Source: Clarias gariepinus (Eukaryota). From it: a stretch of 64,000 nt of DNA. Positions within the stretch are counted from its first letter, which is position 1; each line of letters begins with the position of its first letter. Of this stretch, positions 10,552 through 63,620 are shown in pieces. The notes under the pieces are model-generated. The model had not been told where the DNA came from and searched no databases. It saw nothing but the letters and a program-made list of their open reading frames with translations. The DNA lies in assembly GCF_024256425.1 (NCBI RefSeq), contig NC_071110.1:2316274-2380273 (forward strand). The letters run 5' to 3'. The position numbers and the translations under genes are program-made.

Positions 10552-10552
10552 T

Positions 10553-10611
<59 letters not shown>

Positions 10612-11752: not shown

Positions 11753-11902
11753 CTGTTAGGACACACACACACACACACACACACATAGAGAGAGAGAGAA
11801 AGAGAGAAAGGGAGGGTCCTTTAAGCTTGATAACTTTCGTTTTCTTGGAAAAGAGGCGAAGAGAGAGGAGGAGAGTGTTTTTAAGGAAATCTCTTTTCTT
11901 AC

Positions 11903-25899: not shown

Positions 25900-27160
25900 A
25901 TATACTGTATTTCTAATCTATTCAAACTCATTCAAACTCATCTATCTATCTTAGAAACATGCTAGCAACTTTGCTAATCATGCTAGAAACATGCTAGCGC
26001 CTTTGCTATTCATGCTAGAAACATGCTAGCAACTTTGCTAATCATGCCAGAAACATGCTAGCAACTTTGCTAATCCTGTTAGAAACATGCTAGCAACTTG
26101 CTAATCAATCCAGAAACATGCTAGCAACCTGCTAATCATGCTAGAAACATGCTAGTAACTTTGCTAATCATGCTAGAAACATACTAGTAACTTGCTAATC
26201 ATGTTAGAAACATGCAAGCAACTTTGCTAATCATGCTAGAAACATGCTAGCGCCTTTGCTAATCATGCTAGAAACATTTTAGCAACTTTGCTAATCATGC
26301 TAGAAACATGCTAACAACTTGCTAATCATGCCAGAAACTTGCTAGCAACTTTGCTTATCCTGTTAGAAACATGATAGCAACTTGCTAATCATGCTAGAAA
26401 CATACTAGCGGCTTTGCTAATCATGCTAGAAACATGCTAGCGACTTGCTAACCATGCTAGAAACATGCTAACGACTTGCTAGTCATGCTAGAAACATGCT
26501 AGCGACTTGCTTATTATGCTAGAAACATGCTGGGAACATGCTAATCATGCTAGCGACTTTGCTAATCATGCTAGAAACATACTAGTGACTTTGCTAATCA
26601 CTAGTAGCATGATTAGCTAGAAACATGCTATCATGCTAGAAACATGCTAATGACTTTGCTAGTCATGCTATAAACATGCTAATCATGCTAGAAACATGCT
26701 AGCGACTTGCTAATTGTGCTAGAAACATGCTAGCAACTTTGCTAATCATGCTAGAAACATGCTAGAGACTTTGCTAGTCATGCTAGAAACATGTTAGCCA
26801 CTTGCTAATCATGCCAGAATCATGCTAGCCACTTGCTAATCATGCTAGAAACATGCTATCCACTTTGTTAATCATGCCAGAATCATGCTAGCCACTTGCT
26901 AATCATGCTAGAAACATGATAGCAACATGCTAGCAACGTCCCAATCATGCTAGCAACATGCTAGTAACTTACTACAAATTCTAGCACCATGCTAGTAACT
27001 TGCTAATCATGCTAGCAATATGGTAGTAACTTGCTAATCATGCCTGAAACATGCTAGCAACATGCTAGTAAATTGGTAGTCATGTTAACAACATGCTAGT
27101 AACTTGCTAATCATGCTAGAAAAAATTCTGGTAACTTGCTAATCATACTAGCAACATGTT
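25900..27160. repeat. Minisatellite with a roughly 31-bp unit (catgctagaaacatgctagcaactttgctaat) in about 40 tandem, slightly divergent copies.
   Basis: Direct reading of the periodicity. Confidence 0.95.
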
Positions 27161-32199: not shown

Positions 32200-32470
32200 T
32201 TCCTTTCTTTGAGTGTATAATCCAAAGGATTTTGCATGCACCCATTCGGATCTTCCTCATCCCCAAAGTCATTAATACACACCTTACAGTAACTGTAGTC
32301 AATGGATCTTTTAAGAGATTTAGACACACTGGACTCTCTTGATCTGTTAAAATACCTGCCTCTGCCATTTTGCAGGAGTCATACACTGGGGTGAGGGTAT
32401 GTGCGTGGGTTTGGAGATTGCCTAAGAGGTGGCCGAGTTTCGTTTTCTGGGAAAAGAGCTTCATATAGTT
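32200..32470 (-). pseudogene. Orphan, frameshifted remnant of a finTRIM exon 1. It keeps the 5' UTR, the ATG and part of the RING.
   Basis: The two overlapping ORFs read ..SPVCLNLLKDPLTTVT.. and ..SYCKVCINDFGDEEDP.., which match CPVCLDVLTEPVT / SYCKVCINGCWDQEDV of genes C and D. The nucleotide blocks cattaatacacaccttacagtaactgt and cctctgccatttt are shared with 39600-39790. No downstream exons are present. Confidence 0.65.
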
Positions 32471-33230: not shown

Positions 33231-35217
33231 TAACAGGACACAACCAACAATACTTACATAAACATTAAACACACACCACACCTCACATGACCGAGTCAGC
33301 TCCACAAACATAGACGCACACTGAACATAAGACATAGCTAACACTACAGCCTTTTTATCTTAACAAAACAAAACAAAATGCCCACATAACGACAGTAATC
33401 TTTAAACAATGCTCAACCCAGTTTCCCAGACTAAACAGCTATTTATAGATGATCTAATGGTCTACCTTGGTTCAGGTGTGCACTCGCATCACCTGACCGA
33501 GGTGCCTTCTGGGAAACAAAAGAGTCTGCAAACAAAACTACAAAAAAATTAAAACAGTGACCTCTAGTGGTGGTCCCATTCTGACAGAAAACTACTGCAG
33601 CGGCAAATCACAGCTTTTGCTATTTCCAGTTATCATGGGCTGTGGATAGTTAATAGTAAATACTACATGCACAATATACTTAACATTATAGTAAATAATT
33701 ATACTTAAAATTATAGTAATTGAATTGCTTTAGTGAAAATGGCTAACGTTATTGGATGCAATGCTAAATAAGGTAATTTAACTCACTTTTTTCAGGATGG
33801 GTTTGCTAAAACATCCAACTTGCAAACTAAATATAAACATAAATAATCACAAAGTATATTAAAATTATATCCTCTTTTAATTTAATAGTTTAAATCCACT
33901 TTTTAATGTCGAGTTACATTAATGAAATCACAGCCGTGCGTCAGTTGTTTGTGGCCTGCTTCCCTTCTAACTGAAAATTCCTGCGGTTACTTTGGACAAT
34001 CAAAAAAGACCAGCAGCTACTTCGGCCAACCGGTGCTTTGTTGCTTTGCCTAATAGGTAACACAGCAACTGATCATTCATGAAACAGTAATTGTGGTCAG
34101 ATTTATGCAGAAGTGAATAATAAATTCCATTTTTTATTGATAGCTACAAGTGTTGACTGAATGTATTTATTATTTAATTAATAAATACATTCGAAAATGC
34201 TACGATAACATTTATTAAAAGGTTTTCAGAAGTATTTGGTTTTTGCAATATATGTTTTAGTTTTACATTTTATTTTCCAGTAGTTTTTTTTTAATTGCTA
34301 TTATAATTAATATTTAAGATAAATATTAGAAAATGTAAATGTTGCTTCATATTTTGATGTGGAAATCTATGTTTTGTTCATAGAGTGTATGCTATCTGCA
34401 CATGTAATACAAAGGGAGTAAACTAGCAGTGAAGGTTACTGTACCCTTGATGTAAGAACAATTATGTACCTTCAATTCAGTTGTACTTTAAAAGGTAAAA
34501 AAATGTATCTCCAGAGGTCTTTTGCGTGACATTTAGGGTAGATTTATCAAAAAGGTACAAAACTGTTTTTAGAGAAACATTATTTGCACAACTGTGTAAA
34601 TTTTTTTTCTTAGAGTGTATAAAAAAAGCACCACCTATACTTATACATGCAAAAAGGGTAAATAAAATAGATTTAAAATGTACTTTTGGATTAAATATTT
34701 AAAATAAAATTAAAAAATTAAAATTAAAAAATTAAAATAATAATATTTTGTCTATTATTGTCGGTACTTTTATTGATATAACACCACATTATAATTTGCC
34801 ACCAAGAATATGTAGAAAAAATTTCTCTGCTAAAAAAAATCTTATAATCAAGAATCTCACTTTTAATACTAAATACTAACATTATAAAAAAAAAACACAT
34901 TCTGTTATAGTTGGGTTTTTTGTGTGTGTGTCAGTTACTGTAAATGTAAATGGAATAATTTAACTTTTATTTTAATAGGACTCTTGGGTAATATAGCATA
35001 TTGTATTAGCTGTAAGCCTTAAAATGTAAAAATCTTATACACTTAGTAACAGACGTTTTAACATAGTTAAGTTTATTGTCTTCACTTTTAGCGGAAAGCA
35101 GAATCAATCACAAGACACATCAAGACATGCAATTTTCTGCTAAATAGTGAAATTCTCAAGTAAGCTTCTCAAAACAATAAAGTTTTTAATTTACTTAGCA
35201 ATTTTCCACAAATTCTA

Positions 35218-35744
35218 TTTTGGATCACATAACCTCATAGGGGAATCATAACTCCATATAGAGAACCCAGCGTACAGAGGCTGAGTGAATGTGGTGTGCA
35301 CTGTGTGGAGGAGGCTCATCGTGTCAGGGACGCTGTAGAAGGACAAAGTTCCTGCATTGTGATCTACATACACTCCTATTCTGGAGGACGCTGAACCTTG
35401 AAGCTCAGTTATAATGCTATTGTGCCGGAAACAAACAGAGGAAGAAGAACACTCCAGACTCCAAGATTGACTGTTGCGTCCAAACCTACACTCTTTGCCC
35501 TCTCCTTTCCTGCTGATCTCTTTATATGAGACTGATATTTCCACACCAAACCCGCTCCACTCCACCTCCCAGTAACAGCGTCCACGCATACTCTCCTTAC
35601 ACAAGACCTGAGGCCAGGAGTCAAATCTCTCTGGATGATCAGAGTATCCTTGCTGTTTCCTACTGAGAGTTACATCTCTGTTGTTTTTAAATATAAAGAG
35701 TTTGCAGTTTGCTGTGTTGGGATCCAGAGTCAGATAATTAAAAT
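35218..35744 (-). CDS. finTRIM-like gene C, terminal B30.2 exon. It encodes (D)FNYLTLDPNTANCKLFIFKNNRDVTLSRKQQGYSDHPERFDSWPQVLCKESMRGRCYWEVEW...GVYVDHNAGTLSFY..PLYAGF..CDPK and the stop codon is at 35215-35217.
   Basis: The acceptor is tttcag|ATTTTAA, phase 1. The frame is open from the acceptor to the stop. Confidence 0.8.
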
Positions 35745-35824: not shown

Positions 35825-36088
35825 TGCACCCACACTCTAGCAAATCTTCTCTACTTTTTGGTTTTGAGAGTGGAATCATCAGAACGGCTGCAACTGTGGA
35901 AATAATATGAAAATTATATAAACATAATGGTAATTATGTTTTCTTTTTTTTACCTAGACATGCTGCACTATCAATAAACACATTCCATATAGTTTATGTT
36001 CCTTAATCCTTAAGGCCACCAGCACCGATTGGTGCATAGGGCAATTAGAGTTCTCCATTGTAGAGGACATTTGCTGTTTCTGTAGTGA

Positions 36089-36815: not shown

Positions 36816-37039
36816 CTCACATCCAGGAGAAACACAGAGAGACGGGAAACTCTACAGAGATGAAACACATCATAGAGAAGGAGAAAAGTGTAGGAGAGGA
36901 ACGAATGAATCTCAGACTGAATCAGACCAAAGACACACTTGTGATCTCAGACAGGAACATTTATTGTTGCTGTAATGAGCTTTTAGGAGGAAACTTTGTG
37001 AGGAACAGCGCCCTCTGTAGATCAGACAGTGAGTGTTAC

Positions 37040-40502: not shown

Positions 40503-43500
40503 TTACACAGTGCTTATGGCATTAACTACCATAGAGTTATGCACATAAATTAATAAAAATAGTGACAGACTATGGGGGGGTCGGCCCGGAGGTCGTGGTG
40601 CTGGGCGGTCCGGCCGTGTCAGGTGGAATTCTGTAATGAGCTCTCTGCTTAGCACATCACGGGCCGGGACCCAGCTGCGCTCCTCCGGTCCATACCCCTC
40701 CCAATCGACCAAGTATTGCAGGGCAACTCCTCTCCTCCAGGAGTCTAGAAGTCTTTTGACTCTGAACGCAGGGGCGCCCGCTATTTCCACAGCCCCGGGG
40801 AGCGAAGGCTCTGCGACGCCTCCGTCCAAGGGCCCCCGCACTACTGGCCTAAGAAGAGACACATGAAAGACAGGGTTAATACGCATATGAGCGGGGAGCT
40901 GTAACTTAAAAGAGACAGGGTTAATGCATGCTACAATGGGAAAGGGGCCGATGTATTTAGGGCAGAGTTTGCGACATGGGAGGTTGAGGGAAAGGTCCTT
41001 TGTCGAGAGCCACACTCGATCGCCTAACTGGAGCGGAGGACTTTCCCTTCGCCGTCTATCGGTGAATTTTTTAAAATGGCGAACTGCTTGGGAGATTTTA
41101 GTGTGCGCATCCTCCCATACTTTTTTCGCTCTTTTGAACCACTGATCCACCATGGGGATATGGGTGGAAGTGGCATCCCATGGACAGAGCGGTGGTTGGT
41201 GCCCCAGTACACATTGAAACGGCGTTAAGCCGGTCGAGGAGTGTTTCAGTGAGTTTTGTGCATATTCCGCCCAGAATAAGCAGTCTGCCCACTCATGTTG
41301 TCGACTACTACAATATGCCCGGAGGTACCTCCTGAGATCCTGACAGCTCTGCCTGTCCATTAGATTTGGGGTGATAACCCGACGTTAGGCTAACAGTTGT
41401 CCCCAACTTCTGGAAGAAAGCTTTACAGACTCTCGCGATGAATTGGGGACCACGATCTGAAACAATGTCCTCCGGAATACCGTAGTAGCGAAACACCGAA
41501 TCGAATAGGGTTTCTGCCACCTGGAGGGCGGTTGGAAGCGAGCTAAATGGGAGAAATCGGCATCCCTTAGAGAAGCGATCTACCACGACTAATATTGTAG
41601 TGTACCCTTTAGACACTGGCAGATCCGTTACAAAATCCACGGCGATGTGGGACCACGGCCTGTTCGGTGTGGGCAGGGGCATTAATTTTCCAACTGGCAA
41701 ACATCGAGGGGTTTTAGTTGTTGCGCAAACAGCACAAGACGAAACTACTGTTTTCACGGTTTCCCGCATGTTTGGCCACCAGAACTTTGGTTCTACAGTA
41801 GGAGATGGTATGTTCTCAAAACTCCGGGGTGTCCTGAAGAAAAGCTGGAATGTGCCTCTATCGTCACTCGTTCTCGAAGTACTCTCGAAGTTCTCGGACG
41901 TAGGTTCGGCCCTGTGGACAACCCCGCGCCACGGGTTGGGAACGCATCGCCTGGGTTATCTCCGAGTCGATATCCCACAGTACCGGAGCCACGACAAGTG
42001 ACGGAGGCAATATGGGTTCAGGATCCGAATTCAGATCCGGCGTCGGGAAACAGCGGGATAGCACATCCGCCTTTATATTTTTAGAACCGGGACGGTACGT
42101 GATGGTAAAATGGAAGCGCGTAAAAAACAGCGCCCATCGGGCTTGACGAGAGTTAAGTCTCTTTGCTTGTTGGAGGTACTCCAGATTCCTGTGATCTGTT
42201 AGTACCACGAATGGGTATTTAGCTCCCTCCAACCAATGCCTCCACTCCTCTAACGCCGCTTTGACTGCTAGCAGTTCGCGATTCCCGATATCATAATTGC
42301 GCTCGGCAGGTGTCAGTTTCCGTGAAAAAAAAGCACAGGGGTAGAGCTTTTCTGGGTGGCCGTGGCGCTGTGACAGCACTGCTCCCAACCCCACCTCCGA
42401 CGCATCGACCTTGACTAAAAAAGGCTTCTCGGGATCAGGCAGTTTTAGAATAGGCGCGGAGGTGAAACCTTGTTTTAGTCGCTGGAAAGCCGTACGTGCT
42501 TCCAGCGAAAACGCGCGTAGCCGTTGTGGTTTTCCCTTTAACAAACCGGTGAGCGGTGCTGCCATCATGCTGAAGCACCTAATAAAGCGCCTATAGAAAT
42601 TAGCAAACCCAAGAAAGCTCTGTAGTGCCTTTACTGACTTGGGTTCCGGCCATTGTTGCACCGCTGTTACCTTGGCTGCATCCATTTCGACCCCCTGTGG
42701 CCCATGTGATAGCCGAGGAATGCGATCTCACTCTTGTGAAATTTGCATTTTTCTGCTTTCACATAGAACCCGTCTTCCCGTAGTAGACGAAGGACGGCGG
42801 TTACATGACGGACGTGTTTAACATATGAGTATATGTTTAACATATGAGTATATTAGAATATCATCTAAATATACTATAACAAAACGGTTCAACATATGCC
42901 GAAACACGTCATTCATGAACCCCTGAAACACCGCAGGTGCATTTACCAGTCCATAAGCCATCACGTTATATTGGTAATGACCTGATGTAGTGCTAAACGC
43001 AGTCTTCCATTCATCACCCTTGCGAACACGAACGAGGTTATAGGCGCTGCGGAGGTTGAGTTTGGAAAATATGGACGCGCCGCGGAGCTGGTCGATAGCG
43101 GCCGGTACCAAGGGCAGAGGGTGCTTATATTTTACTGTGATTGCATTGAGCCCTCGATAATCAATACATGGACGTAGACCCCCGCCTTTTTTTTCGATAA
43201 AAAAGAAACCTGCCGACGCGGGTGACGTGGACCTGCTGATGAGCCCCTGACTGAGAGCCTCAGTCACGTATTCCTCCATGGCCCGAGTTTCTGCCGCGGA
43301 CAATGGATAAATGCGTGAGCAAGGCGGTGTTTTCCCCAGCAAGAGATCAATCGCGCAGTCCCACGGACGGTGAGAGGGAAGTCGTGCGGCTGCCCTAACG
43401 CTAAACACATCTTTAAACGAAGTGTACTCAGATGGCACTGTGGTAGATACCTGGGCGGTCGGGCTTTCAATAGTGGTGGTTTGGACCGTTAACGTGGACG

Positions 43501-44770
43501 GTGTACAGAATTTAGCGCATCTTGGGGCCCAGGAAATGATGCGTGAGCCTGCCCAATCAATATTGGGATTGTGAGAACTGAGCCACGGTAAACCCAGTAC
43601 GACGGCTTGGTCTAGCTGAGGAATCACAAAGAATTTTAATTCCTCCGCATGACCGGGAAATTTTAACCGGAGGGGCACGGAAAGGTTCAACAGGCGAATA
43701 CGCTAAGGTTTTGCCATCTAGAGCCTTAATTGCGATCGGATGCGGAAGCTTCGACACTGGAGCTTGCAGCGAGGAAAGGACAGCAGACGAGACGAAGTTT
43801 CCAGCCGACCCAGAATCTATTAGGGGAAACACAGAGACAGAACGATTATTATATGACAAGGTGGCCTGTAAACAAAAATTGTGGTGTGTGCGAGGTGGAG
43901 TGCGTGTAGTTACTTTAAGTAACGGACAGTTTCGGAGCTGATGTGTACCCCCCCACAGTATAAACATAACCCCGACGACAGCCTTCGGTGCCTCTCCTGG
44001 GCCGACAGGCGGGATGTGCCCACGTCCATGGGCTCCGGCGAGCTCTCCTCGCGCGGCTCGACGGGGGGTTTGCTGTCGACGCGGTTCGGACCCTCCGCTG
44101 GCTCCTTTCGCTGGATAAGGTCTGCGATGTCCGCGGAGGTGCTGGTCCAGCTTAATCGCCAGTTGGATGCTGTCATCTAGCGACAAACCCGCGTCCCTGC
44201 GTGCCAGCTCCAGCTGCAGGTCGGGGTGCAGTCCATCTCTGAACCTGGCAAGTAAGCTCTTGCTGCACCAGCCACTCTCCGCGGTGAGGATCTGAAATTT
44301 CACGGCGTAGTCCGCCACTGTAGATTGTCCTTGTTTCAGCCTCAGCAGTTGTTGTTCCCCCGTCCTTCCGTGGTCAGGATGGTAGAACACCGCGCGAAAC
44401 TCGTGGAGAAACTGGTGGTAACTGGACGTGGTGCTCCTGCCAGCGTTCCATACTGCGGTGGCCCAGTTCAGCTGTTGGATGACAAAACTGACCTTCTTTC
44501 CCTCTGAAAGATCAGGAAAGTCGGCCAGGTAGAGCTCGCAGGCTAGGAGGAATTTCTTGCACCCCTCGGGGTCTCCTGCGTATCTCTCCGGAGGGGCTGC
44601 CCGTGGTGGAGAGCGTGCGGACCGGCGTTGGGGCGTGGCCAGTGGTGAGGTTCTGAACGCCGCGCGCCAGGTCGTTGACTGACCTCGCCAGCACGTCGAT
44701 CTGTCGTTGCTGCCGTCGGACGTAATCGAGGTAGGGGGGTTCATCTTCAGGGAGGGGAGGTCTGTTCATC
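40503..44770 (-). mobile_element. Ty3/Gypsy chromovirus-like LTR retrotransposon internal region (gag-protease-RT-RNaseH-integrase-chromodomain). It is degraded by frameshifts, and no clear LTRs were identified.
   Basis: The ORFs give RT with YLDDILIYS (42818-43690), RNase H (41864-42685), an integrase DDE core (41308-41769) and a C-terminal chromodomain ..LVDWEGYGPEERSWVPARDV.. (40503-41360). A small tandem duplication gtttaacatatgagtata x2 at about 42810-42860 sits in the gap between the RT and RNase H ORFs. The element is CpG-rich compared with the host DNA. Confidence 0.85.
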
Positions 44771-46083: not shown

Positions 46084-49000
46084 TATTTTTTTTGTAACTT
46101 CTCAAAGTTCTCTACTAGATTCATCTTTGTGCTGTTATCTTTATGCTGGACCATGAACACACTTCAGTGCCATGAGCCTCCGGGGAATGTGTCACTTCAT
46201 GACATTTTCAAGGGCTTCATCTTGCATAAAAAAGTGTCTGCTGCTTTCATTAATTCATTCATCTGTCATGTAGATGTGGGGGAAAATGTTGCTTAAATGT
46301 AGATTTGTCGACCTGTTTCATGCTCTATATCATCACTTGGGTGGGGTGTTTAAAATAGTGAACTATGCACTCATTACTTATGTAGGCTGTTATCTGACAT
46401 GTACTTGATGATACCCATCACTGAACTCAACCTACACATTAAACATACTTTGGTAAGTAATCAAACATATGCAAATGTAGGCCTGAAAGGTTATTTACAG
46501 CTATAAAGAGTAAAATATTTCCCCTATTAATCCATTATTTAAATTTTTAAGTAAAAAGGTAGCGTTTGGAAATTACTGTAACATTGACCGGTAATACTGT
46601 GCATGTTTCTTTAAGAATGCTGTTCTTGTACAATCAGCTACTAGCGGAGGCTCCCTTATTGGTACACTAGGCTGAGAATTGGGCGTGGACACTAGTAGAG
46701 TGTAAGCGTTTAGCACGTGATGAGTGAGTTCAGGTGTAAACGCGAAAGAGAGTGCTCCTGGTTTAAAAGTGTTTTATATAATTATTTTACAGGTAAACTG
46801 ATGTTAATTAATCTGCAAGTAATGCACAACAGCATTATGTATCATGCAACTGTAGTTTGTACCATTTCCAAAATGTTGAACCTAGTGTTATTTAAGAGTG
46901 CTTGTGCCTAAATCGGCGCTTGTGCCTAAACAATGGCGCTGATAATCTGGGTTAAAGGTCATAATTTTGGCGGGTACAAAAATAAGAAACAAGTGCTTAA
47001 AATACCTCGGCTTAGTCATAAAAGTGGGTAAGGGGTCAATGATAATGAACTGAATTGATGTTTAAGTACATGAATCAGCTTCTAGTGCGTTTTCTTCACT
47101 TTAAAAAAAAAAAGCAAAATAAAATAGTACCAGCTGCAGCAGACAATCAAAAGTGGAAACTGACATCCAATAGTAATTGAAAAACTTGTGCGGAAATTTT
47201 CGCATTTCTTCATAAACCACAAAAAACCTTCCTTCCTTTAATCCGACGTTGTGCAGTCAGAGAGTGAACCCAGTAGCGGCGACGATTTTTTCTTTCCCTG
47301 CGTCGCCGTATTACGAGACTTTTTAAAACAAGAAGATTAATGTCTAATAGAGCAAAATAGTCCATATTAAAAGGAAGCACCTTAAATAAAACAACAAGGG
47401 CTTTCATATCCAGTTCCCGACACTGCGTCCACAGGTTAACACACAAACTACTATTTGGGCTGCAGGCTGGCGTTAGACAGAGACAAACGAACGCCAGTGT
47501 AGAAGTCAATTGAGCGCCACTACAAAACACAACATAAACGTCTAGGACGTCCAGAGCACGTTCGTTTATCCAAAAATTTAACGCCCGTGTGAACAAGGCC
47601 TTAGTCATTTAGTATCTTTCTTTCTATTAATAGGTCGTTCATGAACGATTCGTTGTTTTTGAATGAGTCTTTAACGTGAAGAAGAGTAGATAGAAGAACA
47701 AGTAGACTTGTGATTCATTCGTTTTCTACTGGGGGCACATGCGCAAAGCATCCCAAAACCTCTGTAGGTTATGTACAGTAGTTACCTTTGAGTCTTTGGT
47801 CCGAATCGTTCGTTCTTTTGTCACATTACTCTCATAGACTAGTGATGGGAAGTTTGAATCATTTTAGTGACTCGATTCTTTGAATCTCGTTCATCAAAAT
47901 GAACGAATCTTTTTTTGAGTCATTTAGTTAATTTTGTTCTTTTGATCAGAAATAAAATAAAACATTGCATTTTCAATAGAAAGACTCCCAATACGTCTAC
48001 ATACATTTCATATTTCCATTTTCCAACATTGATAACTGTATAAATCTGTCTCACTGCTCATTTTCAATAAACAGACCCCCAACACATCTACATTAGTAAT
48101 CAGCAATTAATGTAGGAACTTTAAAGGTATTAAAAAATTTATTTACTGCACTTCTAGAATAAAGCTCCTCACCAAGCATGCCACTATGAAATTATACATT
48201 TTAGGAATTTTCTTTATTTTAATTGAATTTTGTTATACCTTACACAATGAACACTTAAAAAGTATTGATTGGGTGTGTTTAATGACTGATGTCTCTTTTA
48301 AAGCCTCAGTAAAGGTTGATAAAAACACAATACATCATAATGCATCAGGATGACTGACTTCACTTGATAATTTTTTTTATTATTAATTATACACGCAGTG
48401 ACACTTATTTAAGGAATTTTCTAGATGTAATATACAAAACAAAAAAGATTCAACCACCATCAGTAGTACAGAAGACACAGCATTTATTATTTATATAATT
48501 TAAGAGACATTGTGCACATTTTTAAACAGTATAAAAATGAAATCTGACATCTAATTTAAAATTTTAATATGCACTTTTATTTACATTTTATTTATAATAA
48601 GTATGATTAATGATGATGATGATAAAAGAACAGTCACTGTAATGCTGTTTCTAGTAAAGTCTGCACTGCATGTTTTATTATACATTATACATTACAGCAT
48701 GTTTTATATACATTTTTATGCATCAAACCTTTCTGCAATACAGTGACCACAGGAACTACTAGACTGTGTGCACAATTGTTACCATTCGATTAGTGGATTA
48801 AGCATAACACGGCTATCCTTTAGGGCAATAATGAGAAGATGTTGATGGATACTTGACACCACAGCAAACCCCCTATTGTTTTAGAGGTAAAAATTAGCAT
48901 GTGTTTTGTTTGAGCTTTGTTTTATGGATCTCTTTTAGGTGGAACAGCAAAATGATTAGACATTTCATCTAAATAACGAAAAAGAAATTGCAAAGCATTA

Positions 49001-49395
49001 CCTTTTATTAAAGACCAGTATCATTACTATATTTGTTTTTCAACATGTTGTATTGGTAATCAAAGTTTCCTTTTGGGGTCTCCGGTTGGTACTCTAAAAA
49101 AAATACTATTTTTATTTTTATTCATTCATTTTTAATACCGCTTATCCTGTACAGTGTTGCAGGGGGCATTTGGGCATGAGACAAGGTGCCAATTTATCAC
49201 AGGACACACAATCTCACACGTTCATTCACTCACTACATGCAGCTTGGGAACGCCAGTTAGCCTAATCTGCATGTCTTTGGACTGTGGGAGGAAACCGGAG
49301 TACCCAAAGGTAACCCACCAATCATGGGAAGAACATGCAAACTCCATGCACACAGACCCCTAGGCAGGAAACAAACCTGACTTTTTTCTGTAAAA

Positions 49396-49466
<71 letters not shown>

Positions 49467-49704
49467 TATGACCAGTTCAGAGGTGTATGAGTGAGGCAGA
49501 AATAAAATCCTTAATTTTAGCCTCTGTTACTCTGTGTCAGTAATTCATACAATTATTATTTCAAATGAGACCATGATGATGAATGTAATGCAAAAAATGT
49601 GGGAACTGTGCTCTTTTTACTTTGGTTATACTATTACTGGATCAAAAAAAATTAAAGGGGTGAAATTTAACAGGTTAAATCTAAGTTTAAGTCATCTTCA
49701 TTTA

Positions 49705-50267
49705 CATAAAAGATGAATCGTCACTATCGTCGACATTTAATTCTGGATCACATAAATTTATATTTGAGTAAAAATAACATATCCTGAACCCAGCGTACAG
49801 AGGCTGAGTGAATGTGGTGTGGACACTGTGGAGTAGACTCATCGTGTCAGAGACGCTGTAAAAGCACAGAGTTCCTGCACTGTGATCCACATACACTCCT
49901 ATTCTGGATGGTGATGGACATTGGAGTTTTATTTCAGTGTTGTTGTGCCAGAAAGATACAGATGTACGATAACACTGCAGATTCCAGGAATGACTGTTGC
50001 CTCCAAACACACCCTCGTCACCCTCTCCTTTCCTCCTGATCTCTTTATATGAGACTGATACGTCCACACCCATACCCTTACACTCTACCTCCCAGTAACA
50101 GCGTCCACACACACTCTCTCGACACAACACCTGAGGCCAGGAGTCAAATCTCTCTGGATGCTGACTGTATTGATGTGCTTCCCTACTGCGTGTCACTGCT
50201 CTGCTCCTCTCAGACAGAATGAGCTGATCGTGTGCTGTGTTGGGATCCAGAGTCAGATAACGAAAAT
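49705..50267 (-). CDS. Intact B30.2 exon of the gene A/B subtype, beginning (D)FRYLTLDPNTAHDQLILSERSRAVTRSREAHQYSQHPERFDSWPQVLCRESVCGRCYWEVECKG. It is the probable true terminal exon of gene D, or a stand-alone spare exon. The stop codon is at 49702-49704.
   Basis: The acceptor is ttttcag|ATTTTCG, phase 1. The 3' flank (48100-49700) and the 5' flank (taatcacaag.. at 50291) are homologous to the flanks of the gene A/B B30.2 exon (6170-9110; 9716-9745). Confidence 0.6.
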
Positions 50268-52432
50268 CTGAAAAATTAAAATGTCCACAGGCTAGATATT
50301 AATCACAAGTTTATAATAAAGTGCCTTACAATTTATTCAAGTTTCTTAAAAGTCACTACATTCATCTGGATTACAAATTATAGATGTAATGCTCTTACAT
50401 TTTAATTTTTAACTTTTTCCATCAAAATGTATTATTTTTAAGCAAAACCTGAAAAATGCTGTTTGCATAAATATTCAAGTTTTTCAGCCTAGTACAGTAT
50501 ATATATATATTATTTGCAGCTTTAACAGCTTTAGATCTGCTGCGGTAAGATAGCATGATGGTTTTTTTACCACCACATTTTATTTTAGTGATGCTGATGT
50601 TTGTCACGTCTTTGGTTCTTTTTAAACAATTGTTCCTCGACTCGCTCACATTAGTATCTGTCATGTTTTTGCTCTGAGTTTTAAGGCATAGTCTTTTCTA
50701 GGTAGTGCTTGGGTGGTGTGGTGCAGCTTTAACTTCTTCACAGCTCACAGCACTTACTAAGATGCCCAGCCTCTTAGATTAAATTCAGTTTAATTCAATT
50801 CAATTTAATTTGTATGTATAGTGCTTTAAACAGTGATCTTTGTTGCAAAGCAACTTTACCGAAATGTGTATGAAATGTGAGAAAATGTGTATAAGTCAAA
50901 ATGATCAGATAGTCCCTGATGAGAAAGCTGAGGTTGATGGTGGCAAGGAAAAACTCTCTGAGATAGCAACAGTTTTGTGCAGTGGCTGTAAATACGGTTC
51001 ATCATGATACACTGCTTGTTTAGGCAAGTTTTGGCGCTGTGATTAGGTTTCCATCTTTCCGCACGTCGGTCCTCGCATAGCGGGGTTTGTAGGATGCCTT
51101 TCACACACACACACACACACATACACTAACTAACGGTTTGGGAATGACTGCTGTCTGGCTAACGGATTACATAAATTGTCTGAATAACGGATTACATTTT
51201 TTTTTAAATAACAAAAAAACTGAGTACTTAAATGGCGGACCTAAAGGGTTACTAGTTACATCAAAAAAGTAATTCAAGTACTCTAATGTGTTACTTTGTA
51301 ACGCGTTACACTCAACACTGGGTAGGACCCACTTATAAAGCAGGTCACACTTTAGAATTAATATTATCCTTAAAATTAATTATAGGAAATATAACCATGA
51401 ATCCACAGTCTGAAGCTATCTCAGATCATTTCTTGTCTCAATTAAAGTGTGTCACAGTAATAATGTTCGCACAGCACTGCACTACCACATTAAACGTACA
51501 AGCAGGCACTCCGGTAGGACTAACTATGACATTATAACTAAAAGGGAGAGCCAGAAGGAAACACAGACATGAGGGCTCCCTGAGATGTAAAGCAAACAAT
51601 CACCTCGCCGTCAGCAAACCTGAGTGATCAATGAGAGTGAGGAGGACAGCATCTAAACATACCAGTTCACCATAATACTCTACGTCCATGAGTCCCCCAG
51701 ATCTGCTCCTTTACCTATGGCAAATCTATTTATAAAAATGCTAGGCTAAATAAATAGGTTTTTAGCCCTGACTTAAACACTGAGACTGTGTCTGAGTCCC
51801 GAACACTATTTGGAAGACTATTCCATAACTTTGGGGTTTGGAAAAGAAAAAGCTCCGCCCCCAGCTGTAGTTTTCATAATATGCGGTACTGACAAGCAGC
51901 CTGCATCCTCTGATCGAAGTAGGCGTGGCGGATCGTAAGACACTAGCACTACTACCACTGGGTGCCAATGCAGTGTGGATAAGATAGGGATGATGTGCTC
52001 ATATCTTCTGGTTCTAGTGAGGACTCTCGCTGATGCATTCTGGACTAACTGAAGCTAGTTTATGCACCTAGTTAAATCAGCTGTAAGGCATTACAATAGT
52101 CCAACCTAGAGGTGATAAAAGGATAAGATAATTTTTTTCTGCATCGTTTAGTCACAATATATTTCTTATTTTGGCCATATTTCTGAGATCAGATAATGCT
52201 ATCCTGGTAATATTATCTACATGACCGTCAAATTACAGATTAGAATCTATAATCACACCGAGGTCTTATACTGTTGGACTTGATGGAACAGAAAAGCCAT
52301 CCAGAGTTACTGTGTAACCAAAAAGTGTAATTCAAAAAGTTATTCTTTGCTTGCCCGTTAGACCTAATCAGAAAAGTTTGTAATATAAATAAATCATTAT
52401 GATATGTTTTTTTTTTTTGGTGGTGGGGGTCA

Positions 52433-52495
<63 letters not shown>

Positions 52496-52773
52496 ATTTT
52501 ACACCTACACTTCAGAAAATCTTCTCTTTGTTTTGGTTCTGAGGGTAAACCCTTTTGAACTACTGCAGCTGTGGAGACACAAAGACAAAACTTAGACAAA
52601 TGTAATATGTTTAGAGCCCCATCAAAAATACTGACAGAAACTGTCCTATCAGCAAATCCAAAAATGTTAAAACATGTAAATAACTTTCACTTTCTGCAAG
52701 AATGAAAGTATCAAAAAGCAGGATTATAGCTGCTATAAATAGGTTAAATCTAAGTTAAAGTCATCTTCATCTA

Positions 52774-53290
52774 TATAGAAAATAAATCGTCACTATTGTC
52801 TACATTTAATTCTGGCTCACATGAATTTATAGTTGAGTAATAATAACACATCCTGAACCCAGCGTATAGAGGCTGAGTGAATGTGGTGTGGACACTGTGG
52901 AGGAGACTCATCGTGTCAGAAGGACAGAGTTCCTCCACATACACTCCTATTCTGGACGGTGATGGACCTTGGAGTTTTATTTCAGTGTTGTCAGGCCATA
53001 AACAAACAGAAGTAGGATAACACTGCAGATTCCAGGAATGACTGTTGCATCCAAACACACACTCGTCACTCTCTCCTTTCTTGCTGATCTCTTTATATGA
53101 GACTGATACGTCCACACCCATACCCTTACACTCTACCTCCCAGTAACAGCGTCCACACACACTCTCTCGACACAACACCTGAAGCTAATCTTTCTGGATG
53201 CTGACTGTATTGTTGTGCTTCCTTACCGCGTGTCACTGCTCCGCTCCTCTCAGACAGAATGAGCTGATCATGTGCTGTGTTGAAATCTGA
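52774..53290 (-). pseudogene. Degraded B30.2 pseudo-exon lying in what is otherwise the last intron of gene D. It has multiple deletions, including a 21-nt loss of RYLTLDP, a frameshifting deletion of about 8 nt near HPERFDS, and a loss of about 30 nt in the VDHSAGTLSFY region.
   Basis: It aligns with 49705-50267 with clear gaps. It is bracketed by the (TG)n-containing intron segment (52430-52600) and gene D exon 4. Confidence 0.6.
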
Positions 53291-53661
53291 AACAGAACCT
53301 GTAATAACTTTACTGTGATAACTTTAAACACATAACAAAATGTGTGTTTTTACTTTCTGCTAGACTTAATATATTAAAAAGCAGGATTATAGCTGCTGTC
53401 TAGATGAGTTCAGTTCATCATTCTTTACTTTTGGATTTCTTCTATTTAACTTGACATCCATTCTTTAGCATATTTACAACATTTATTTTGTGAGATTCAG
53501 TGAAATCAGTTTCTGGATTTGATGGTTTAAGGTTATGGATTTGATACAAAGTTAATATTCATCTATGATTGTTAATGTAGTCTTGTTCCTGCCTACGTTT
53601 TAAACCTGCTTCTTAATTTCTTCTTTAATTTGATTCCAAATAAATGTTTTTAGCACATTAC

Positions 53662-53785
53662 CGCATTTATTAATTTTGTTGAACTCCACCTCAAAGATTT
53701 CCTCAACTTGTGTTCTAAGATTTGAAAGAGATTGCTGCACTCCATCAAATGAGAATTTTTTATTGACGAAGAAGCGGTGTGAGTC
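53662..53785 (-). CDS. finTRIM-like gene D, exon 4 (124 nt).
   Basis: The acceptor gtgag|GAC is the only upstream AG here; the alternative acccag seen in the other copies is mutated to acaccg. The donor is TGCG|gtaatg. Confidence 0.6.
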
Positions 53786-54009
53786 CTCACATCCAGGAGA
53801 AACACAGAGAGACGGGAAACTCTACAGAGAGGAAACACATCATAGAGAAGGAGAAAAGTGTAGGAGAGGAACGAATGAATCTCAGACTGAATCAGACCAA
53901 AGACACACTTGTGATCTCAGACAGGAACATTTATTGTTGCTGTAATGAGCTTTTAGGAGGAAACTTTGTGAGGAACAGCGCCCTCTGTAGATCAGACAGT
54001 GAGTGTTAC

Positions 54010-54243
54010 CTGGAGGAAGTGGATGTGATCGTGTGTGTGTGAAAGCGGCTTCATCTCAGTGACTCTCCTCTTTAGATCAGCAATCTCCTGCTCCAGTTGC
54101 TTCAGGAGTCGTTCAGCTCGACTCAGTTTAGCTTTCTCCTGATCTCTGATCTTCTTTGTCACCTCCGAGCGCTTTTTCTCCATAAGGCTGATCAGCTCAG
54201 TAAAGATCCTCTCATTGTCATCTACTGCTGCCTGTGAATGCAT
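54010..54243 (-). CDS. finTRIM-like gene D, exon 3 (234 nt). It encodes MHSQAAVDDNERIFTELISLMEKKRSEVTKKIRDQEKAKLSRAERLLKQLEQEIADLKRRVTEMKPLSHTHDHIHFLQ.
   Basis: It corresponds to the ORF at 53992-54243 and has the same splice junctions as the other copies. Confidence 0.75.
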
Positions 54244-54251
54244 CTGTTAGG

Positions 54252-54310
<59 letters not shown>

Positions 54311-54457: not shown

Positions 54458-54553
54458 CTTTATGAAGTCCATGGATCGTTTCGGGTCCTGCACACTTTCT
54501 CTTTTCTTCTTTATCCTCCGCTCAAATTCCCTTTGCTTTTTCTCCAGCTCTTT
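54458..54553 (-). CDS. finTRIM-like gene D, exon 2 (96 nt). It encodes KELEKKQREFERRIKKKRESVQDPKRSMDFIK.
   Basis: It is homologous to gene C exon 2 and the frame is intact. Confidence 0.7.
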
Positions 54554-56845: not shown

Positions 56846-57445
56846 CTCTTTTTCAGTTCTTTCTACTTCTGCTAAAACTGTATCATGATCTTTATGTTTA
56901 TCCATTGTACATGAAAAGCAGATGAAGCTTTGGTCAGTACGACAGTAGATCTCAATCAGTTTGTCGTGCTGAGAGCAGATCTTCTCTTGGAGATCTGCAC
57001 AGGCTTCCACTAACTTGTGCTTCTTAAAGGCAGGAGACTGATAGTGAGGTTTAACATGATCTTCACAATAGGAGGCCAGACACACCAGACAGGACTTGAC
57101 GGCTTTGCGTTTTCTCCCGGTGCAGAAATCACACTCCACATCTCCAGGTCCAGCGTAGCAGTGAGCAGGAGAAGCAGGCTGGAGTTCAGTCTTTTTCAGT
57201 TTCTCCACCACTTCAGCCAGAATGTTGTTCCTATGTAGAACAGGCCTTGGGGTAAAAGTCTCTCTACACTGAGGACAGCTGTAGACACCCTTCACATCCT
57301 CCTGATCCCAGCAGCCATTAATACACACCTTACAGAAACTGTGACCACAGGAAATAGTCACTGGTTCTGTCAGGACATCCAGACACACTGGACAAATGAA
57401 GTGATCCACTGACAGCTTATCTACTAAAAGAGATCCCTCTGCCAT
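56846..57445 (-). CDS. finTRIM-like gene D, exon 1 (RING plus two B-boxes). It begins MAEGSLLVDKLSVDHFICPVCLDVLTEPVTISCGHSFCKVCINGCWDQEDVKGVYSCPQCRETF...
   Basis: The 203-aa ORF at 56834-57445 has the donor GAAAAAGAG|gtgagaac. The ISRE GAAATCGAAACT lies at 57508-57519 on the sense strand. Confidence 0.85.
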
Positions 57446-60539: not shown

Positions 60540-63500
60540 AAGTCTGGATAAATGCAGAGGGTTGTGTCAGGAAGGGCATCCGACGTGAAACATTTGCCAA
60601 ATCAATGATGCGAATCAAGAATATAATTCCCATACCGGATCGGTCGTGGCCCGGGTTAACAACGACCGCCACTGGTGCTGTTGACCTACAGGCTGCTGGT
60701 GGAAATTGGGCTACTGTTGGTCGAAGAAGGAGAGGAGGAAGGCGTGTTCGTAAGCAGAGAGAGAAGAGGAAAGGCAAGAGTTTAGGAGTGATGGTAGGGA
60801 CTTTGAATGTTGGGACCATGACAGGGAAGGGAAGAGAGTTAGTTGATATGATGCAGAGAAGAAAGGTGGATATACTGTGTGTACAGGAGACCAGGTGGAA
60901 AGGTAGCAAGGCTAGAAGCTTAGGATCAGGGTTCAAATTGTTTTACCATGGTGTGGATAGGAAAAGAAATGGAGTAGGAGTTATCCTAAAAGAGGAGTTT
61001 GTAAGGAATGTTCTAGAGGTGAAGAGAGTATCAGATAGGGTGATGAGTCTGAAGCTGGAAATTGAAGGGATAATGTTCAATGTTGTTAGTGGTTATGCCC
61101 ACAGGTAGGATGTGAGTTAAAAGAGAAGGAGAAATTCTGGAGTGAGTTAGATGAAGTGATGCAGAGCATCCCCAGAGGTGAAAGAGTGGTGATTGGTGCA
61201 GACTTCAATGGACATGTTGGGGAAGGGAACAGAGGTGATGAAAATGTGATGGGCAGGTTTGGTCTTCAGGACAGAAATGCAGAAGGACAGATGGTGGTGG
61301 ACTTTGCAAAGAGGATGGAAATGGCAGTGGTAAATACTTTTTTCCAGAAGAGGCAGGAACATAGGGTGACATATAAGAGTGGAGGCAGAAGCACTCAGGT
61401 CGACTACATCTTGTGTCGACGTTGTAACCTGAAAGAGATCAGTGACTGCAAAGTGTTGGTAGGGGAGAGTGTAGCCAGACAACACAGAATGGTGGTGTGT
61501 AAAATAACCCTGGTGGTGAGGAAGGCAAAGAGGACAAAGGCAGAGCAGAGGACAAAGTGGTGGAAGCTGAGAAAGGAAGAATGTTGTGAAGTCTTTAGGG
61601 AGGAGTTGAGACAGGCTATGGATGGTCAGGAGGTGCTTTCAGTTGACTGGACAACTACAGCCAATGTGATCAGGGAGACAGGTAGGAGGGTACTTGGTGT
61701 ATCATCAGGTAAGGGGAAAGTGGACAAGGAGACTTGGTGGTGGAATGAGGAAGTCCAGGAGTGTATACAGGGAAAGAGGCTAGCTAAGAAGAAGTGGGAC
61801 TCTGAGAGGACTGAAGAGAGTAGACAGGAGTACAGGGAGATGCAGAGTAAGACGAAGGTAGAGGTGGCAAAGGCCAAACAAAGAGCATATGAGGACTTGT
61901 ATGCAGACAGTAAGGAGGGAGAGGGCGATCTGTACAGGTTGGCAAGGCAGAGAGATACAGATGGGAAGGATGTGCAGCAGGTTAGAGTGATTAAAGATAG
62001 AGATGGAAATGTACTGACAGATGCCAGAAGGGTGATGGGAAGATGGAAGGAGTACTTTAAGGAGTTGATGAATGAGGAAAACGAAAGAGAACAAAGAGTA
62101 GAAGAGGTGACTGTTGTCGAACAGGAAGTAGCAAATATTGGTAGAAGTGAGGTGAGAAGGGCGTTGAAGAGGATGAAGAGTGGAAAGGCTGTTGGTCCTG
62201 ATGACATACGTACCTGTGGAGGTATGGAAGTGCTTAGGAGAGGTGGCAGTAGAGTTTTTGACAAGTTTGTTTAACAAGATCTTGGAGAGTGAAAGGATTC
62301 CAGAGGAATGGAGGAGAAGTGTATTGGTGCCAATTTTTAAGAACAAGGGAGATGTGCAAAGCTGTGGCAATTATAGAGGTATAAAGCTAATGAGCCAGAC
62401 AATGAAGCTGTGGGAAAGAGTAGTGGAAGCTAGGTTAAGGGCAGAGGTAAGCATTTGTGAGCAGCAATATGGTTTTATGCCTAGAAAGAGTACATCAGAT
62501 GCAGTATTTGCTTTGAGGATGCTGGCGAAGAAGTACAGAGAAGGTAACACGGAGTTGCATTGTGTCTTTTTAGATTTAGAGAAAGCGTATGACAGGGTGC
62601 CAAGAGAGGAGCTGTGGTATTGTATGAGGAAGTCTGGAGTGGCAGAGAAGTATGTTAGAGTGGTGCAGGACATGTATGAGAGCTGTAAGACAGTGGTAAG
62701 ATGTGCTGTAGGTGTGACAGAAGAGTTTAAGATGGAGGTGGGTCTGCATCAAGGATCGGCTCTAAGCCCCTTTTTGTTTGCTCTGGTGATGGACAGGATG
62801 ACAGATGAGGTAAGACAGGAGTCCCCATGGACTAGGATGTTTGCAGATGACATTGTGCTCTGTAGCGAGAGCAGGGAACAGGTGGAGAAAAATTTGGAGA
62901 GGTGGAGGTATGCTCTGGAAAGCAAAGGAATGAAGGTTAGCCGCAGCAAGACGGAATACATGTGTGTAAATGAGAGGGACCCAGGAGGATCGGTGAGGCT
63001 ACAGGGAGCAGAGGTAAAGAAGGTGCAGGATTTTAAGTACTTAGGGTCAACGGTCCAGAGCAACGGAGAGTGTTCAAAGGAGGTGAAGAGGCGGGTACAG
63101 GCAGGTTGGAATGGGTGGAGAAAAGTGTCAGGTGTGTTGTGCGATAAAAGAGTATCAGCGAGAATGAAAGGAAAGGTGTACAGGACAGTGGTGAGACCAG
63201 CGATGCTCTACGGCTTAGAGACAGTGGCGTTGAAGAAAAGACAGGAGGCAGAGTTGGAGGTAGCAGAGCTGAAGATGTTGAGGTTCTCTTTGGGAGTGAC
63301 AAGGATGGATAGGATTAAGAATGAGTTTATCAGAGGGACAACCCACGTTAGATGTTTTGGAGATAAAGTCAGAGAGGCCAGATTGAGGTGGTTTGGACAT
63401 GTTCAGAGGAGAGATTGTGAATATATCGGTAGAAGGATGCTAAGGTTGGAACTGCCAGGCAGAAGGCCTAGAGGAAGACCAAAGAGGAGATTTATGGATG

Positions 63501-63620
63501 CAGTGAGAGAGGACATGAAGTTAGTTGGTGTGAGAGAAGAGGATGCAGAGGATAGGGTTAGATGGAGGCAGATGATTCGCTGTGGCGACCCCTGAAAGGG
63601 AACAGCCGAAAGACAAAGAA
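60540..63620 (+). mobile_element. Non-LTR retrotransposon (RTE/Rex3-like or I-like). The APE endonuclease plus RT are split into three overlapping ORFs by frameshifts.
   Basis: The endonuclease reads ..VDILCVQETRWKG.. (60605-61108) and ..GADFNGHVG.. (61156-62274). The RT reads ..YGFMPRKSTSDAVFALRMLAEKYRE..LHCVFLDLEKAYDRVPRE..FADDIVL.. (62180-63595). Confidence 0.85.

What the first reader, a model, noticed from the sequence alone, without database searches (positions are those of the whole stretch)
49705..53290. Spare and shuffled B30.2 exons: gene D has a decayed B30.2 pseudo-exon plus an intact B30.2 exon of the other subfamily further downstream
Downstream of gene D exon 4 (53662) lies a B30.2 exon full of in-frame and frameshifting deletions (52774-53290). 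About 2.5 kb further on lies an intact B30.2 exon (49705-50267). Its coding sequence and both flanks are of the gene A/B type: its 3' flank matches 6170-9110, and taatcacaag at 50291 matches 9716 and position 1. Genes C and D otherwise share exon 1-2 sequences that are very different from A and B. Gene D therefore appears to be a chimera, with a C/D-type N-terminal half and an A/B-type substrate-recognition domain, created by a partial segmental duplication. The degraded copy remains as an intronic relic. Because the B30.2 domain is the pathogen-recognition module, this shows specificity-domain shuffling in action.
Basis: partly seen in the sequence, partly recalled or inferred. Interest (0 to 1): 0.65.

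Follow-up and report, generated by a model that had tools for sequence, protein, structure and literature searches.

The report
Spare B30.2 exon copy in catfish finTRIM
An African-catfish antiviral-type finTRIM gene carries a broken extra copy of its own target-recognition (B30.2) exon inside an intron, upstream of an overlooked small exon and the working B30.2 exon. This is an ordinary product of duplication and gene conversion in an immune gene cluster, with one small twist: the public annotation reads 60 bases of the broken copy as a new coding exon.

Summary
Both B30.2 exons are real, on the minus strand. The intact one is 50267-49702. The decayed one is 53286-52771, with three frameshifting deletions.

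The window is Clarias gariepinus. It holds four tandem finTRIM genes.

Gene D is therefore a canonical six-exon, 571-aa finTRIM, and the decayed copy sits inside intron 4. That copy is flanked by 50-nt direct repeats of D-specific intron-4 sequence (a 663-bp unit).

The decayed copy is not of a different subfamily. It forms an unresolved trio with the D and B exons (K2P 0.08-0.10) and lies 0.32 from C. It is therefore not a displaced original C/D-type exon.

RefSeq XP_053362957.1 equals my six-exon model plus the first 60 nt of the decayed copy, read as an in-frame cassette exon.

Mosaicism is real but general:
- D and B share a sharply bounded tract of about 92% identity (exon 6 plus 2.2 kb of 3' flank).
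- Gene C's B30.2 is 99% identical to that of another paralogue whose N-terminus differs.
- The direction of transfer for D cannot be resolved.

This is a new instance of a known process. Interest is low to moderate.

The parts
56846..57445 (-). Gene D exon 1 (RING and B-boxes; 600 nt, phase 0).
   Evidence: ORF and tblastn. Donor GAG|GTGAGA. Pfam RING and B-box.
54458..54553 (-). Gene D exon 2 (96 nt, coiled coil). The C/D-specific sequence type.
   Evidence: In one search D-C identity is 0.906 and D-A/B is 0.667; all 28 informative sites support AB|CD.
54010..54243 (-). Gene D exon 3 (234 nt, coiled coil).
53662..53821 (-). Gene D exon 4 (160 nt). Ends in phase 1; donor GCG|GTAATG.
53348..53397 (-). 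Upstream copy of a 50-nt direct repeat of intron-4 sequence, on the 5' side of the decayed B30.2 copy.
   Evidence: the repeat finder reports 2 copies at 86% identity with spacing 663. The alignment to A/B intron 4 shows that both copies share D-specific bases.
52771..53286 (-). Decayed B30.2 pseudo-exon. It lacks the first 21 nt of the exon and carries 8-, 10- and 11-nt deletions. Read-through from exon 4 stops after 53 codons.
   Evidence: Alignment A2. Read-through translation. Only a PRY fragment is detected by Pfam, with no SPRY. K2P is 0.081 to D exon 6, 0.104 to B and 0.323 to C.
53227..53286 (-). The first 60 nt of the pseudo-exon, annotated by RefSeq as an in-frame cassette exon encoding DFNTAHDQLILSERSGAVTR. 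Acceptor tttcag|ATTTCA, donor CACGCG|GTAAGG.
   Evidence: The seven-exon CDS including this piece translates exactly to XP_053362957.1, 591 aa. The GTAAGG donor is specific to the pseudo-exon; the intact exon has GTAGGG and B has TTAAGG.
52735..52770 (-). About 36 nt of B30.2-exon 3' flank carried along with the pseudo-exon. The duplication junction lies at about 52735.
   Evidence: Alignment A2. Coordinates.
52685..52734 (-). Downstream copy of the 50-nt intron-4 direct repeat. From here intron 4 continues into exon 5.
52509..52568 (-). Acceptor ctccacag|CTGCAG, donor GAAGT|GTAGGT.
   Evidence: tblastn, sequence and the complete ORF. Homologous to exon 5 of A (1116-1169), B (10645-10698) and C (35834-35893). 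The 60-nt size matches the published finTRIM structure (PMC2657112).
50268..52508 (-). Intron 5 of gene D (2.2 kb). It begins with a (CA)n tract, is mostly unalignable to B's intron of about 960 nt, and is probably expanded by repeat insertions.
   Evidence: No finTRIM exon 1-4 homology was found here by tblastn.
49702..50267 (-). Gene D exon 6: intact PRY/SPRY (B30.2) exon including the stop codon. Its C-terminal extension ELNVDDSDDSSFM is shared with B.
   Evidence: Pfam PRY and SPRY. 100% match to XP_053362957.1.
48102..50340 (-). Tract shared by D and B at 90-96% identity: about 70 nt of intron 5, exon 6 and 1.6 kb of D's 3' flank (2.2 kb in all). The 5' boundary is sharp.
   Evidence: Sliding identity, K2P by partition and BLAST.

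Best explanation
The window is part of a tandem finTRIM (ftr, 'TRIM16/25-like') array of the African catfish Clarias gariepinus.

Gene D is a canonical six-exon RING-B-box-coiled-coil-PRY/SPRY gene. Its functional 3' end is exon 5 (52568-52509) plus the intact B30.2 exon (50267-49702).

The decayed B30.2 is a secondary partial duplicate of the same B30.2 type. It lies inside intron 4 as a 663-bp unit made of intron-4 repeat, pseudo-exon, and about 36 nt of 3' flank, followed by the intron-4 repeat again.

The most likely origin (inferred) has two steps:
1. A tandem duplication, or an equivalent unequal crossover between close paralogues, copied the segment from intron 4 to just past exon 6.
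2. A later deletion removed exon 5 and intron 5 from the upstream copy, and small frameshifting deletions followed.

The upstream copy cannot encode a B30.2 domain. It keeps an AG acceptor and has a GTAAGG donor 60 nt in, so RefSeq models its first 60 nt as an in-frame cassette exon adding 20 residues to the linker. Whether that exon is actually spliced in is not shown.

The discordant similarity of D's front and back halves reflects patchwork gene conversion and unequal crossing-over across the whole array. It is not a single event that replaced D's recognition domain.
For: Shown:
- A complete 571-aa ORF with GT-AG introns and exon sizes 600/96/234/160/60/566. These match the published finTRIM structure of 555-594/96/234/154/60/~545 (PMC2657112).
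- Pfam finds RING, B-box, TRIM_CC, PRY and SPRY.
- XP_053362957.1 is identical to the six-exon model plus the 60-nt piece.
- D is colinear with B from 57182 to 48102. Relative to A/B, the pseudo-exon is an insertion between 53332 and 52651: 681 nt in D against 67 nt in B.
- 50-nt direct repeats at 53397-53348 and 52734-52685 share D-specific bases against A/B.
- D exon 6, the pseudo-exon and B exon 6 form an unresolved trio (informative sites 6:6:7), all about 0.3 from C.
- Mosaicism is array-wide.
- Other catfish gene models also carry two tandem B30.2 copies: P0130 and P0151.
Against: - The 45 nt immediately upstream of the pseudo-exon match neither intron 4 nor intron 5 significantly. The 5' junction, and so the two-step duplication-then-deletion history, is inferred and not demonstrated.
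- No transcript data were available. Use of the 60-nt exon rests on a single automated RefSeq model. The skipping isoform (571 aa) is not in the protein collection.
- The direction of the D-B exon 6 exchange could not be polarised.
Confidence: 0.78

Rival explanations
1. Gene D originally ended in a C/D-type B30.2 exon. A partial segmental duplication then delivered an A/B-type B30.2 exon downstream, and the original exon decayed in place.
For: - D's exons 1-2 group with C and its exons 5-6 group with A/B.
- D and B share a tract of about 92% identity covering exon 6 and the 3' flank.
Against: - The decayed exon is B/D-type: K2P 0.08-0.10, against 0.32 to C.
- It lies upstream of exon 5, within intron-4 sequence colinear with A/B.
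- No exon 5 precedes it.
- It is bracketed by D-specific direct repeats.
- D's introns 4 and 5 are as far from A/B (K2P about 0.35) as its intron 1. There is therefore no switch to 'A/B-type' at exon 4.
Confidence: 0.06
2. The pseudo-exon arrived in one step. A B30.2 exon fragment from D itself or from an A/B-like paralogue was copied into a staggered break in intron 4 by template switching or synthesis-dependent repair, which generated the 50-nt flanking duplication. No intermediate carrying a second exon 5 ever existed.
For: - The unit is compact at 663 bp, and its boundaries fall almost exactly at the exon edges.
- In the 5' part of the exon, the pseudo-exon shares derived sites with B rather than D. 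Sites grouping the pseudo-exon with B lie only at alignment columns up to 393, and sites grouping D with B lie only from column 380 on.
- No trace of exon 5 or intron 5 is found upstream of the pseudo-exon.
Against: - A 50-66-nt flanking duplication is long for break repair.
- The 3' junction, exon flank joined to intron 4, is exactly what a simple tandem duplication produces.
- Tandem full-length B30.2 duplicates occur in other catfish gene models.
Confidence: 0.2
3. Gene D is not the recipient. The tract of exon 6 plus 3' flank moved from D to B, so B is the chimera. Gene C is a separate chimera, with a D-like 5' half joined to a P0253-like 3' half. D itself is vertically inherited throughout.
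For: - D versus A/B non-coding divergence is roughly uniform from intron 1 to intron 5, at K2P 0.27-0.44.
- In the second half of the B30.2, gene A is only 68% identical to its sister B, while B is 83% identical to D.
- C's B30.2 is 174/176 identical to P0253's, although their exons 1-2 differ strongly.
Against: - The D-B high-identity tract starts 70 nt upstream of exon 6. Yet in the first 62 residues B equals A (98%) and not D (89%). A single D-to-B transfer of the whole tract therefore does not fit, and several short conversion tracts are needed.
- A's exon 6 is known only as protein.
Confidence: 0.35

Closest known systems
B30.2 exon shuffling between zebrafish group A finTRIMs and group 1 NLRs (van der Aa et al. 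2009, PMC2657112)
   Same: The B30.2 domain is encoded by one exon, and that exon has a different history from the rest of the gene. The gene family (finTRIM) and its six-exon layout are the same.
   Different: Here the exchange is between neighbouring finTRIM paralogues and not between families. A decayed duplicate also remains in the intron.
Domain-specific gene conversion of B30.2 exons in zebrafish NLR-B30.2 genes (Howe et al. 2016, PMC4852459)
   Same: The recognition exon and the N-terminal exons give different trees. Short conversion tracts within the B30.2 exon create mosaics.
   Different: The gene family differs. Here there are only four local genes plus a few chromosome-wide paralogues, and no population or family-wide dS analysis was done.
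TRIM5-CypA fusions in owl monkey and macaques, and the zebrafish finTRIM with a cyclophilin A domain (Boudinot et al. 2011, PMC3137616)
   Same: A new sequence inserted in or after a late intron of a TRIM gene alters what is spliced onto the RBCC scaffold.
   Different: Those cases are retrotransposed foreign domains that replace B30.2. Here the insert is a same-type B30.2 fragment, it is not a retrocopy, and it cannot replace the domain.
Exonization of pseudo-exons, in which cryptic splice sites turn intronic sequence into cassette exons (general knowledge)
   Same: The sequence is intronic, has an AG acceptor and a GTAAGG donor, is a multiple of three in length, and is included in an annotated mRNA.
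   Different: The source is a decayed duplicate of the gene's own terminal coding exon and not a transposable element. Inclusion is only predicted.

Membership tests
finTRIM (ftr) genes of teleosts | RING, B-box, coiled-coil and PRY/SPRY (B30.2) architecture. | tested here: met
   Pfam on XP_053362957.1 finds zf-C3HC4_4, zf-B_box, TRIM_CC, PRY and SPRY, all above their cut-offs.
finTRIM (ftr) genes of teleosts | Conserved six-exon layout: RBB exon of 555-594 nt, then 96, 234, about 154 and 60 nt, and a B30.2 exon of about 545 nt (PMC2657112). | tested here: met
   Gene D is 600/96/234/160/60/566 nt with GT-AG introns and one open frame.
finTRIM (ftr) genes of teleosts | Closest relatives are proteins named finTRIM or fish virus induced TRIM, and the genes lie in same-strand tandem clusters. 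| tested here: met
   Hits include 'finTRIM family member 14/16/67' and 'Fish virus induced TRIM protein'. Four same-strand copies lie in the window.
finTRIM (ftr) genes of teleosts | Induction by virus or interferon. | not testable with these tools
   No expression data were available.
Processed (retrotransposed) pseudogene | Spliced cDNA structure, a poly(A) tail and short target-site duplications. | tested here: not met
   The copy covers a single exon plus about 36 nt of genomic flank. It has no poly(A) tail, and the flanking repeat is 50 nt of intron 4.
Tandem segmental duplication or unequal crossover product | A junction joining sequence downstream of the unit to sequence at its start, with flanking direct repeats that are each other's closest relatives. 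| tested here: met
   B30.2 3' flank is joined to an intron-4 repeat at about 52735. The repeats are 86% identical and share D-specific bases. The 5' side is unresolved.
Gene-conversion or recombination mosaic | Discordant partition phylogenies and sharp identity boundaries. | tested here: met
   Site patterns by partition. A sharp boundary at about 50340. A/B/D switches within exon 6. Gene C compared with P0253.
Exonized cassette exon | Functional splice sites, preserved reading frame, and presence in transcripts. | tested here: inconclusive
   AG and GTAAGG are present, and the 60 nt is in frame and included in a RefSeq model. No transcript evidence was accessible.

The most novel reading that the evidence does not exclude
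The intronic B30.2 relic is not inert. It is retained as a nearby donor of sequence patches for gene conversion into the functional B30.2 exon, as pseudo-V genes are in chicken immunoglobulin loci. At the same time it supplies a 60-nt alternative exon that places a second copy of the first PRY strand in the linker.
Probability: 0.07. Interest if true: 0.65.

Novelty: new member of a known kind. Interest (0 to 1): 0.3.

Why it matters
The locus is a clear, well-resolved snapshot of how recognition exons of an innate-immune TRIM cluster are duplicated, exchanged and discarded. It holds a within-gene partial duplicate with both junction regions visible, a sharply bounded exchanged tract, and a neighbouring gene whose B30.2 is nearly identical to that of a distant paralogue. 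It also corrects the gene anatomy (exon 5). Finally, it flags a RefSeq model that may contain either an exonized pseudo-exon fragment or an annotation artefact, and this can be checked directly with existing catfish RNA-seq data. It does not reveal a new mechanism.

Tried and rejected
- Retrocopy origin of the pseudo-exon: rejected. There is no poly(A) tail, genomic flank is retained, and the flanking repeat is 50 nt long.
- Separate hidden gene between 50300 and 52770: rejected. tblastn with exons 1-4 finds nothing there, only exon 5.
- Assembly artefact: rejected. The two copies differ by 8% and by unique indels.
- Polarising the chimera with other catfish proteins: failed. Both B30.2 types are only 64-78% identical to any outgroup, and no orthologues are evident.
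- Resolving whether the pseudo-exon is sister to D or to B: failed. Informative sites split 6:6:7, with a hint of a switch along the exon.
- Origin of the 45 nt just upstream of the pseudo-exon: no significant match to intron 4 or intron 5 of any paralogue.
- The look-up of encoding contigs for XP_053362957.1: not on record, so no flanking genome could be fetched.
- Rfam scan of the whole window: no hits, so the ultra-conserved intron 3 is not a known RNA.
- The first protein search, with exon 1 alone, returned only proteins shorter than 350 aa and missed the identical RefSeq protein. A full-length query was needed.
Full report
**What the window is.** ORF listing and tblastn show four same-strand (minus) finTRIM-type genes.
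- Gene D has exon 1 at 57445-56846.
- Gene C has exon 1 at 39770-39171 and its B30.2 exon at 35744-35212.
- Gene B has a RING-less exon 1 with an in-frame TAA and its B30.2 exon at 9682-9111.
- Gene A has a RING-less exon 1 at 3749-3390. Its B30.2 exon lies off the left edge of the window.

Retroelement ORFs lie between the genes. A full-length protein search identified the organism. XP_053362957.1 and XP_053362955.1 of Clarias gariepinus correspond to genes D and C. P0245 and P0242 correspond to genes A and B.

**Check of the observation.** Both B30.2 exons exist. The intact one is 50267-49702 and encodes PRY plus SPRY. The decayed one is 53286-52771. Compared with the intact exon it lacks 21 nt at its start and carries 8-, 10- and 11-nt deletions. 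Reading in from exon 4 gives a stop after 53 codons. Pfam recognises only a PRY fragment in it.

The flank matches to gene B and the TAATCACAAG triplet are real. The motif occurs three times against 0.3 expected.

Two parts of the description are wrong.
- The stretch between the two copies is not empty. A canonical 60-nt exon 5 lies at 52568-52509, with good splice sites and the correct phase.
- The two copies are not of different subfamilies.

**Anatomy of gene D.** With exon 5 included, exons of 600/96/234/160/60/566 nt give one open 571-aa frame with GT-AG introns. This is the published finTRIM layout (PMC2657112). The decayed copy is therefore inside intron 4.

Relative to genes A and B, D carries an extra stretch of about 610 nt between 53332 and 52651. 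This stretch is bounded by 50-nt direct repeats at 53397-53348 and 52734-52685, which are 86% identical with a spacing of 663 nt. Both repeat copies carry bases that differ from the A/B homologue, so the duplication happened within the D lineage.

On the 3' side, the pseudo-exon keeps about 36 nt of exon-6 flank and then joins the intron-4 repeat. This is the junction expected of a tandem duplication running from intron 4 to just past exon 6. On the 5' side, the repeat continues for about 16 nt of intron-4-like sequence. The last 45 nt before the pseudo-exon match nothing significantly. The loss of exon 5 and intron 5 from the upstream copy is therefore inferred and not demonstrated.

**Relationship of the B30.2 copies.** D exon 6, the pseudo-exon and B exon 6 are 0.08-0.10 apart (K2P). 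Informative sites split 6:6:7. All three are 0.29-0.32 from C. The pseudo-exon cannot be the remnant of a C-type original.

Sites grouping the pseudo-exon with B lie only in the 5' two-thirds of the exon. Sites grouping D with B lie only in the 3' part. This hints at patchwork conversion within the exon.

**The RefSeq twist.** XP_053362957.1 (591 aa) is identical to my six-exon model except for 20 extra residues, DFNTAHDQLILSERSGAVTR, between exons 4 and 5. These residues are encoded by 53286-53227, the first 60 nt of the pseudo-exon. The acceptor is tttcag|A and the donor is CACGCG|GTAAGG. The seven-exon CDS reproduces the RefSeq protein exactly.

The GTAAGG donor is specific to the pseudo-exon. 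The intact exon has GTAGGG at the same place and B has TTAAGG. By count of matches to the consensus, this donor is as good as the gene's other donors (my count). The 571-aa skipping isoform is not in the protein collection. Whether the exon is used in vivo is unknown.

**Is gene D a chimera?** Partition trees do conflict. In exon 1, intron 1 and exon 2, AB|CD sites number 15, 56 and 28, against at most 3 for the alternatives. In exons 5 and 6, D is closer to A/B (0.86-0.93) than to C (0.71-0.79). The pattern is nevertheless a general mosaic.
1. D is colinear with A/B along its whole length. Non-coding divergence is similar in intron 1, intron 4 and the 3' part of intron 5, at K2P 0.27-0.44.
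2. Only exon 6 plus 2.2 kb of 3' flank is unusually close between D and B, at 0.90-0.96 identity. This tract starts sharply about 70 nt upstream of the exon.
3. Gene A's B30.2 is known from P0245. Its first 62 residues are 98% identical to B, but in the second half it is 68% identical to B and 75% to D.
4. Gene C's exon 3-4 region is 93-96% identical to A/B. Its intron 4 is unrelated to the others. Its B30.2 is 174/176 identical to that of another paralogue (P0253), whose exons 1 and 2 are only 68% and 41% identical to C.

Gene C is thus the clearest domain-swap product. For D, the direction of exchange cannot be determined from this window. Outgroup proteins did not help.

**Comparison with what is known.** Single-exon B30.2 shuffling in finTRIMs is established (PMC2657112). 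So are domain-specific B30.2 gene conversion in fish NLRs (PMC4852459) and domain replacement in TRIM genes (PMC3137616). Gene models with two tandem B30.2 copies also occur in Pangasius djambal (P0130) and Silurus meridionalis (P0151). This locus is a new, well-resolved instance of a known process. The possible exonization of a fragment of the gene's own decayed terminal exon is a minor novelty that needs transcript data.

**Verdict.**
The intronic relic, the distal functional exon and the mosaic ancestry hold up. The claims of a different subfamily, of a displaced original exon and of no intervening exon are wrong, and naming D as the chimera is not established.
- Interest is about 0.3.

Noticed in passing
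window 53822-54009 (gene D intron 3); the same intron at 36852-37039 (C), 11331-11518 (B) and 1797-1984 (A): Intron 3 (188 nt) has only 3 variable sites among the four paralogues, giving 98.9-99.5% identity. The flanking exons 3 and 4 have 34 and 35 variable sites. The intron contains AATAAA at 53935. Reading through its donor gives the tail VTLTV followed by a stop. Exactly that tail ends annotated proteins of about 315 aa in several catfishes, with VTHTV and VINTV in Silurus and a gymnotiform. This suggests a conserved intronic-polyadenylation isoform without B30.2, or a very recent conversion tract. Rfam finds nothing here.
   Followed up: partly
window 35212-35744 (gene C exon 6) and 35834-35893 (exon 5): Gene C's B30.2 is 174/176 identical to that of another C. 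gariepinus finTRIM on the same chromosome (P0253). That paralogue's exons 1 and 2 are only 68% and 41% identical to C, whereas C's exons 1-2 are 88% and 78% identical to gene D. This is the cleanest domain-swap signal in the window.
   Followed up: partly
window 3390-3749 (A exon 1) and 12896-13270 (B exon 1): Genes A and B are 5'-truncated copies without the RING. Homology to D starts at D 57182. B also has an in-frame TAA in exon 1, yet exons 2-6 of both genes remain open. They are annotated as shorter proteins of 359 and 412 aa.
   Followed up: partly
proteins P0130 (Pangasius djambal, 699 aa) and P0151 (Silurus meridionalis, 721 aa): These gene models contain two nearly identical tandem B30.2 copies after exon 4. 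In P0130 the first copy follows exon 4 directly, without exon 5, as in gene D. Tandem B30.2-exon duplication may be recurrent, or old, in catfish finTRIMs. Alternatively these models may be annotation fusions.
   Followed up: no
window 49702-49740 and 9111-9150: The B/D-type B30.2 has a 12-13-residue acidic C-terminal extension (ELNVDDSDDSSFM or KLNVEDSDDSSSM). At that point C-type and A end in CDPK or CDLK followed by a stop. At the homologous position C has TAG and D has TTA.
   Followed up: no
window 40503-44744: Ty3/Gypsy-like retroelement ORFs (gag-like, RT, RNase H, integrase SH3 and chromodomain) lie between genes D and C. Pao/BEL-type peptidase and integrase ORFs lie at 14840-17304. 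A LINE-type RT lies at 62180-63595.
   Followed up: partly
window 25952-27160: A 1.2-kb minisatellite with a 31-32-nt unit (TAGAAACATGCTAGCAACTTGCTAATCATGC), about 31 copies at about 80% identity.
   Followed up: no
window 32226-32332: An isolated, degenerate RING-finger fragment on the minus strand (PVCLNLLKDPLTT...YSYCKVCINDFG), with no other finTRIM exons nearby. It resembles the unusual N-terminus of P0253.
   Followed up: no
window 54244-54300, 11753-11775, 2219-2240, 52430-52500, 10543-10608: (GT/CA)n microsatellites sit immediately upstream of exon 3 in genes A, B and D, and immediately downstream of exon 5 in B and D. They may act as recombination-prone sequence at the partition boundaries.
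   Followed up: no
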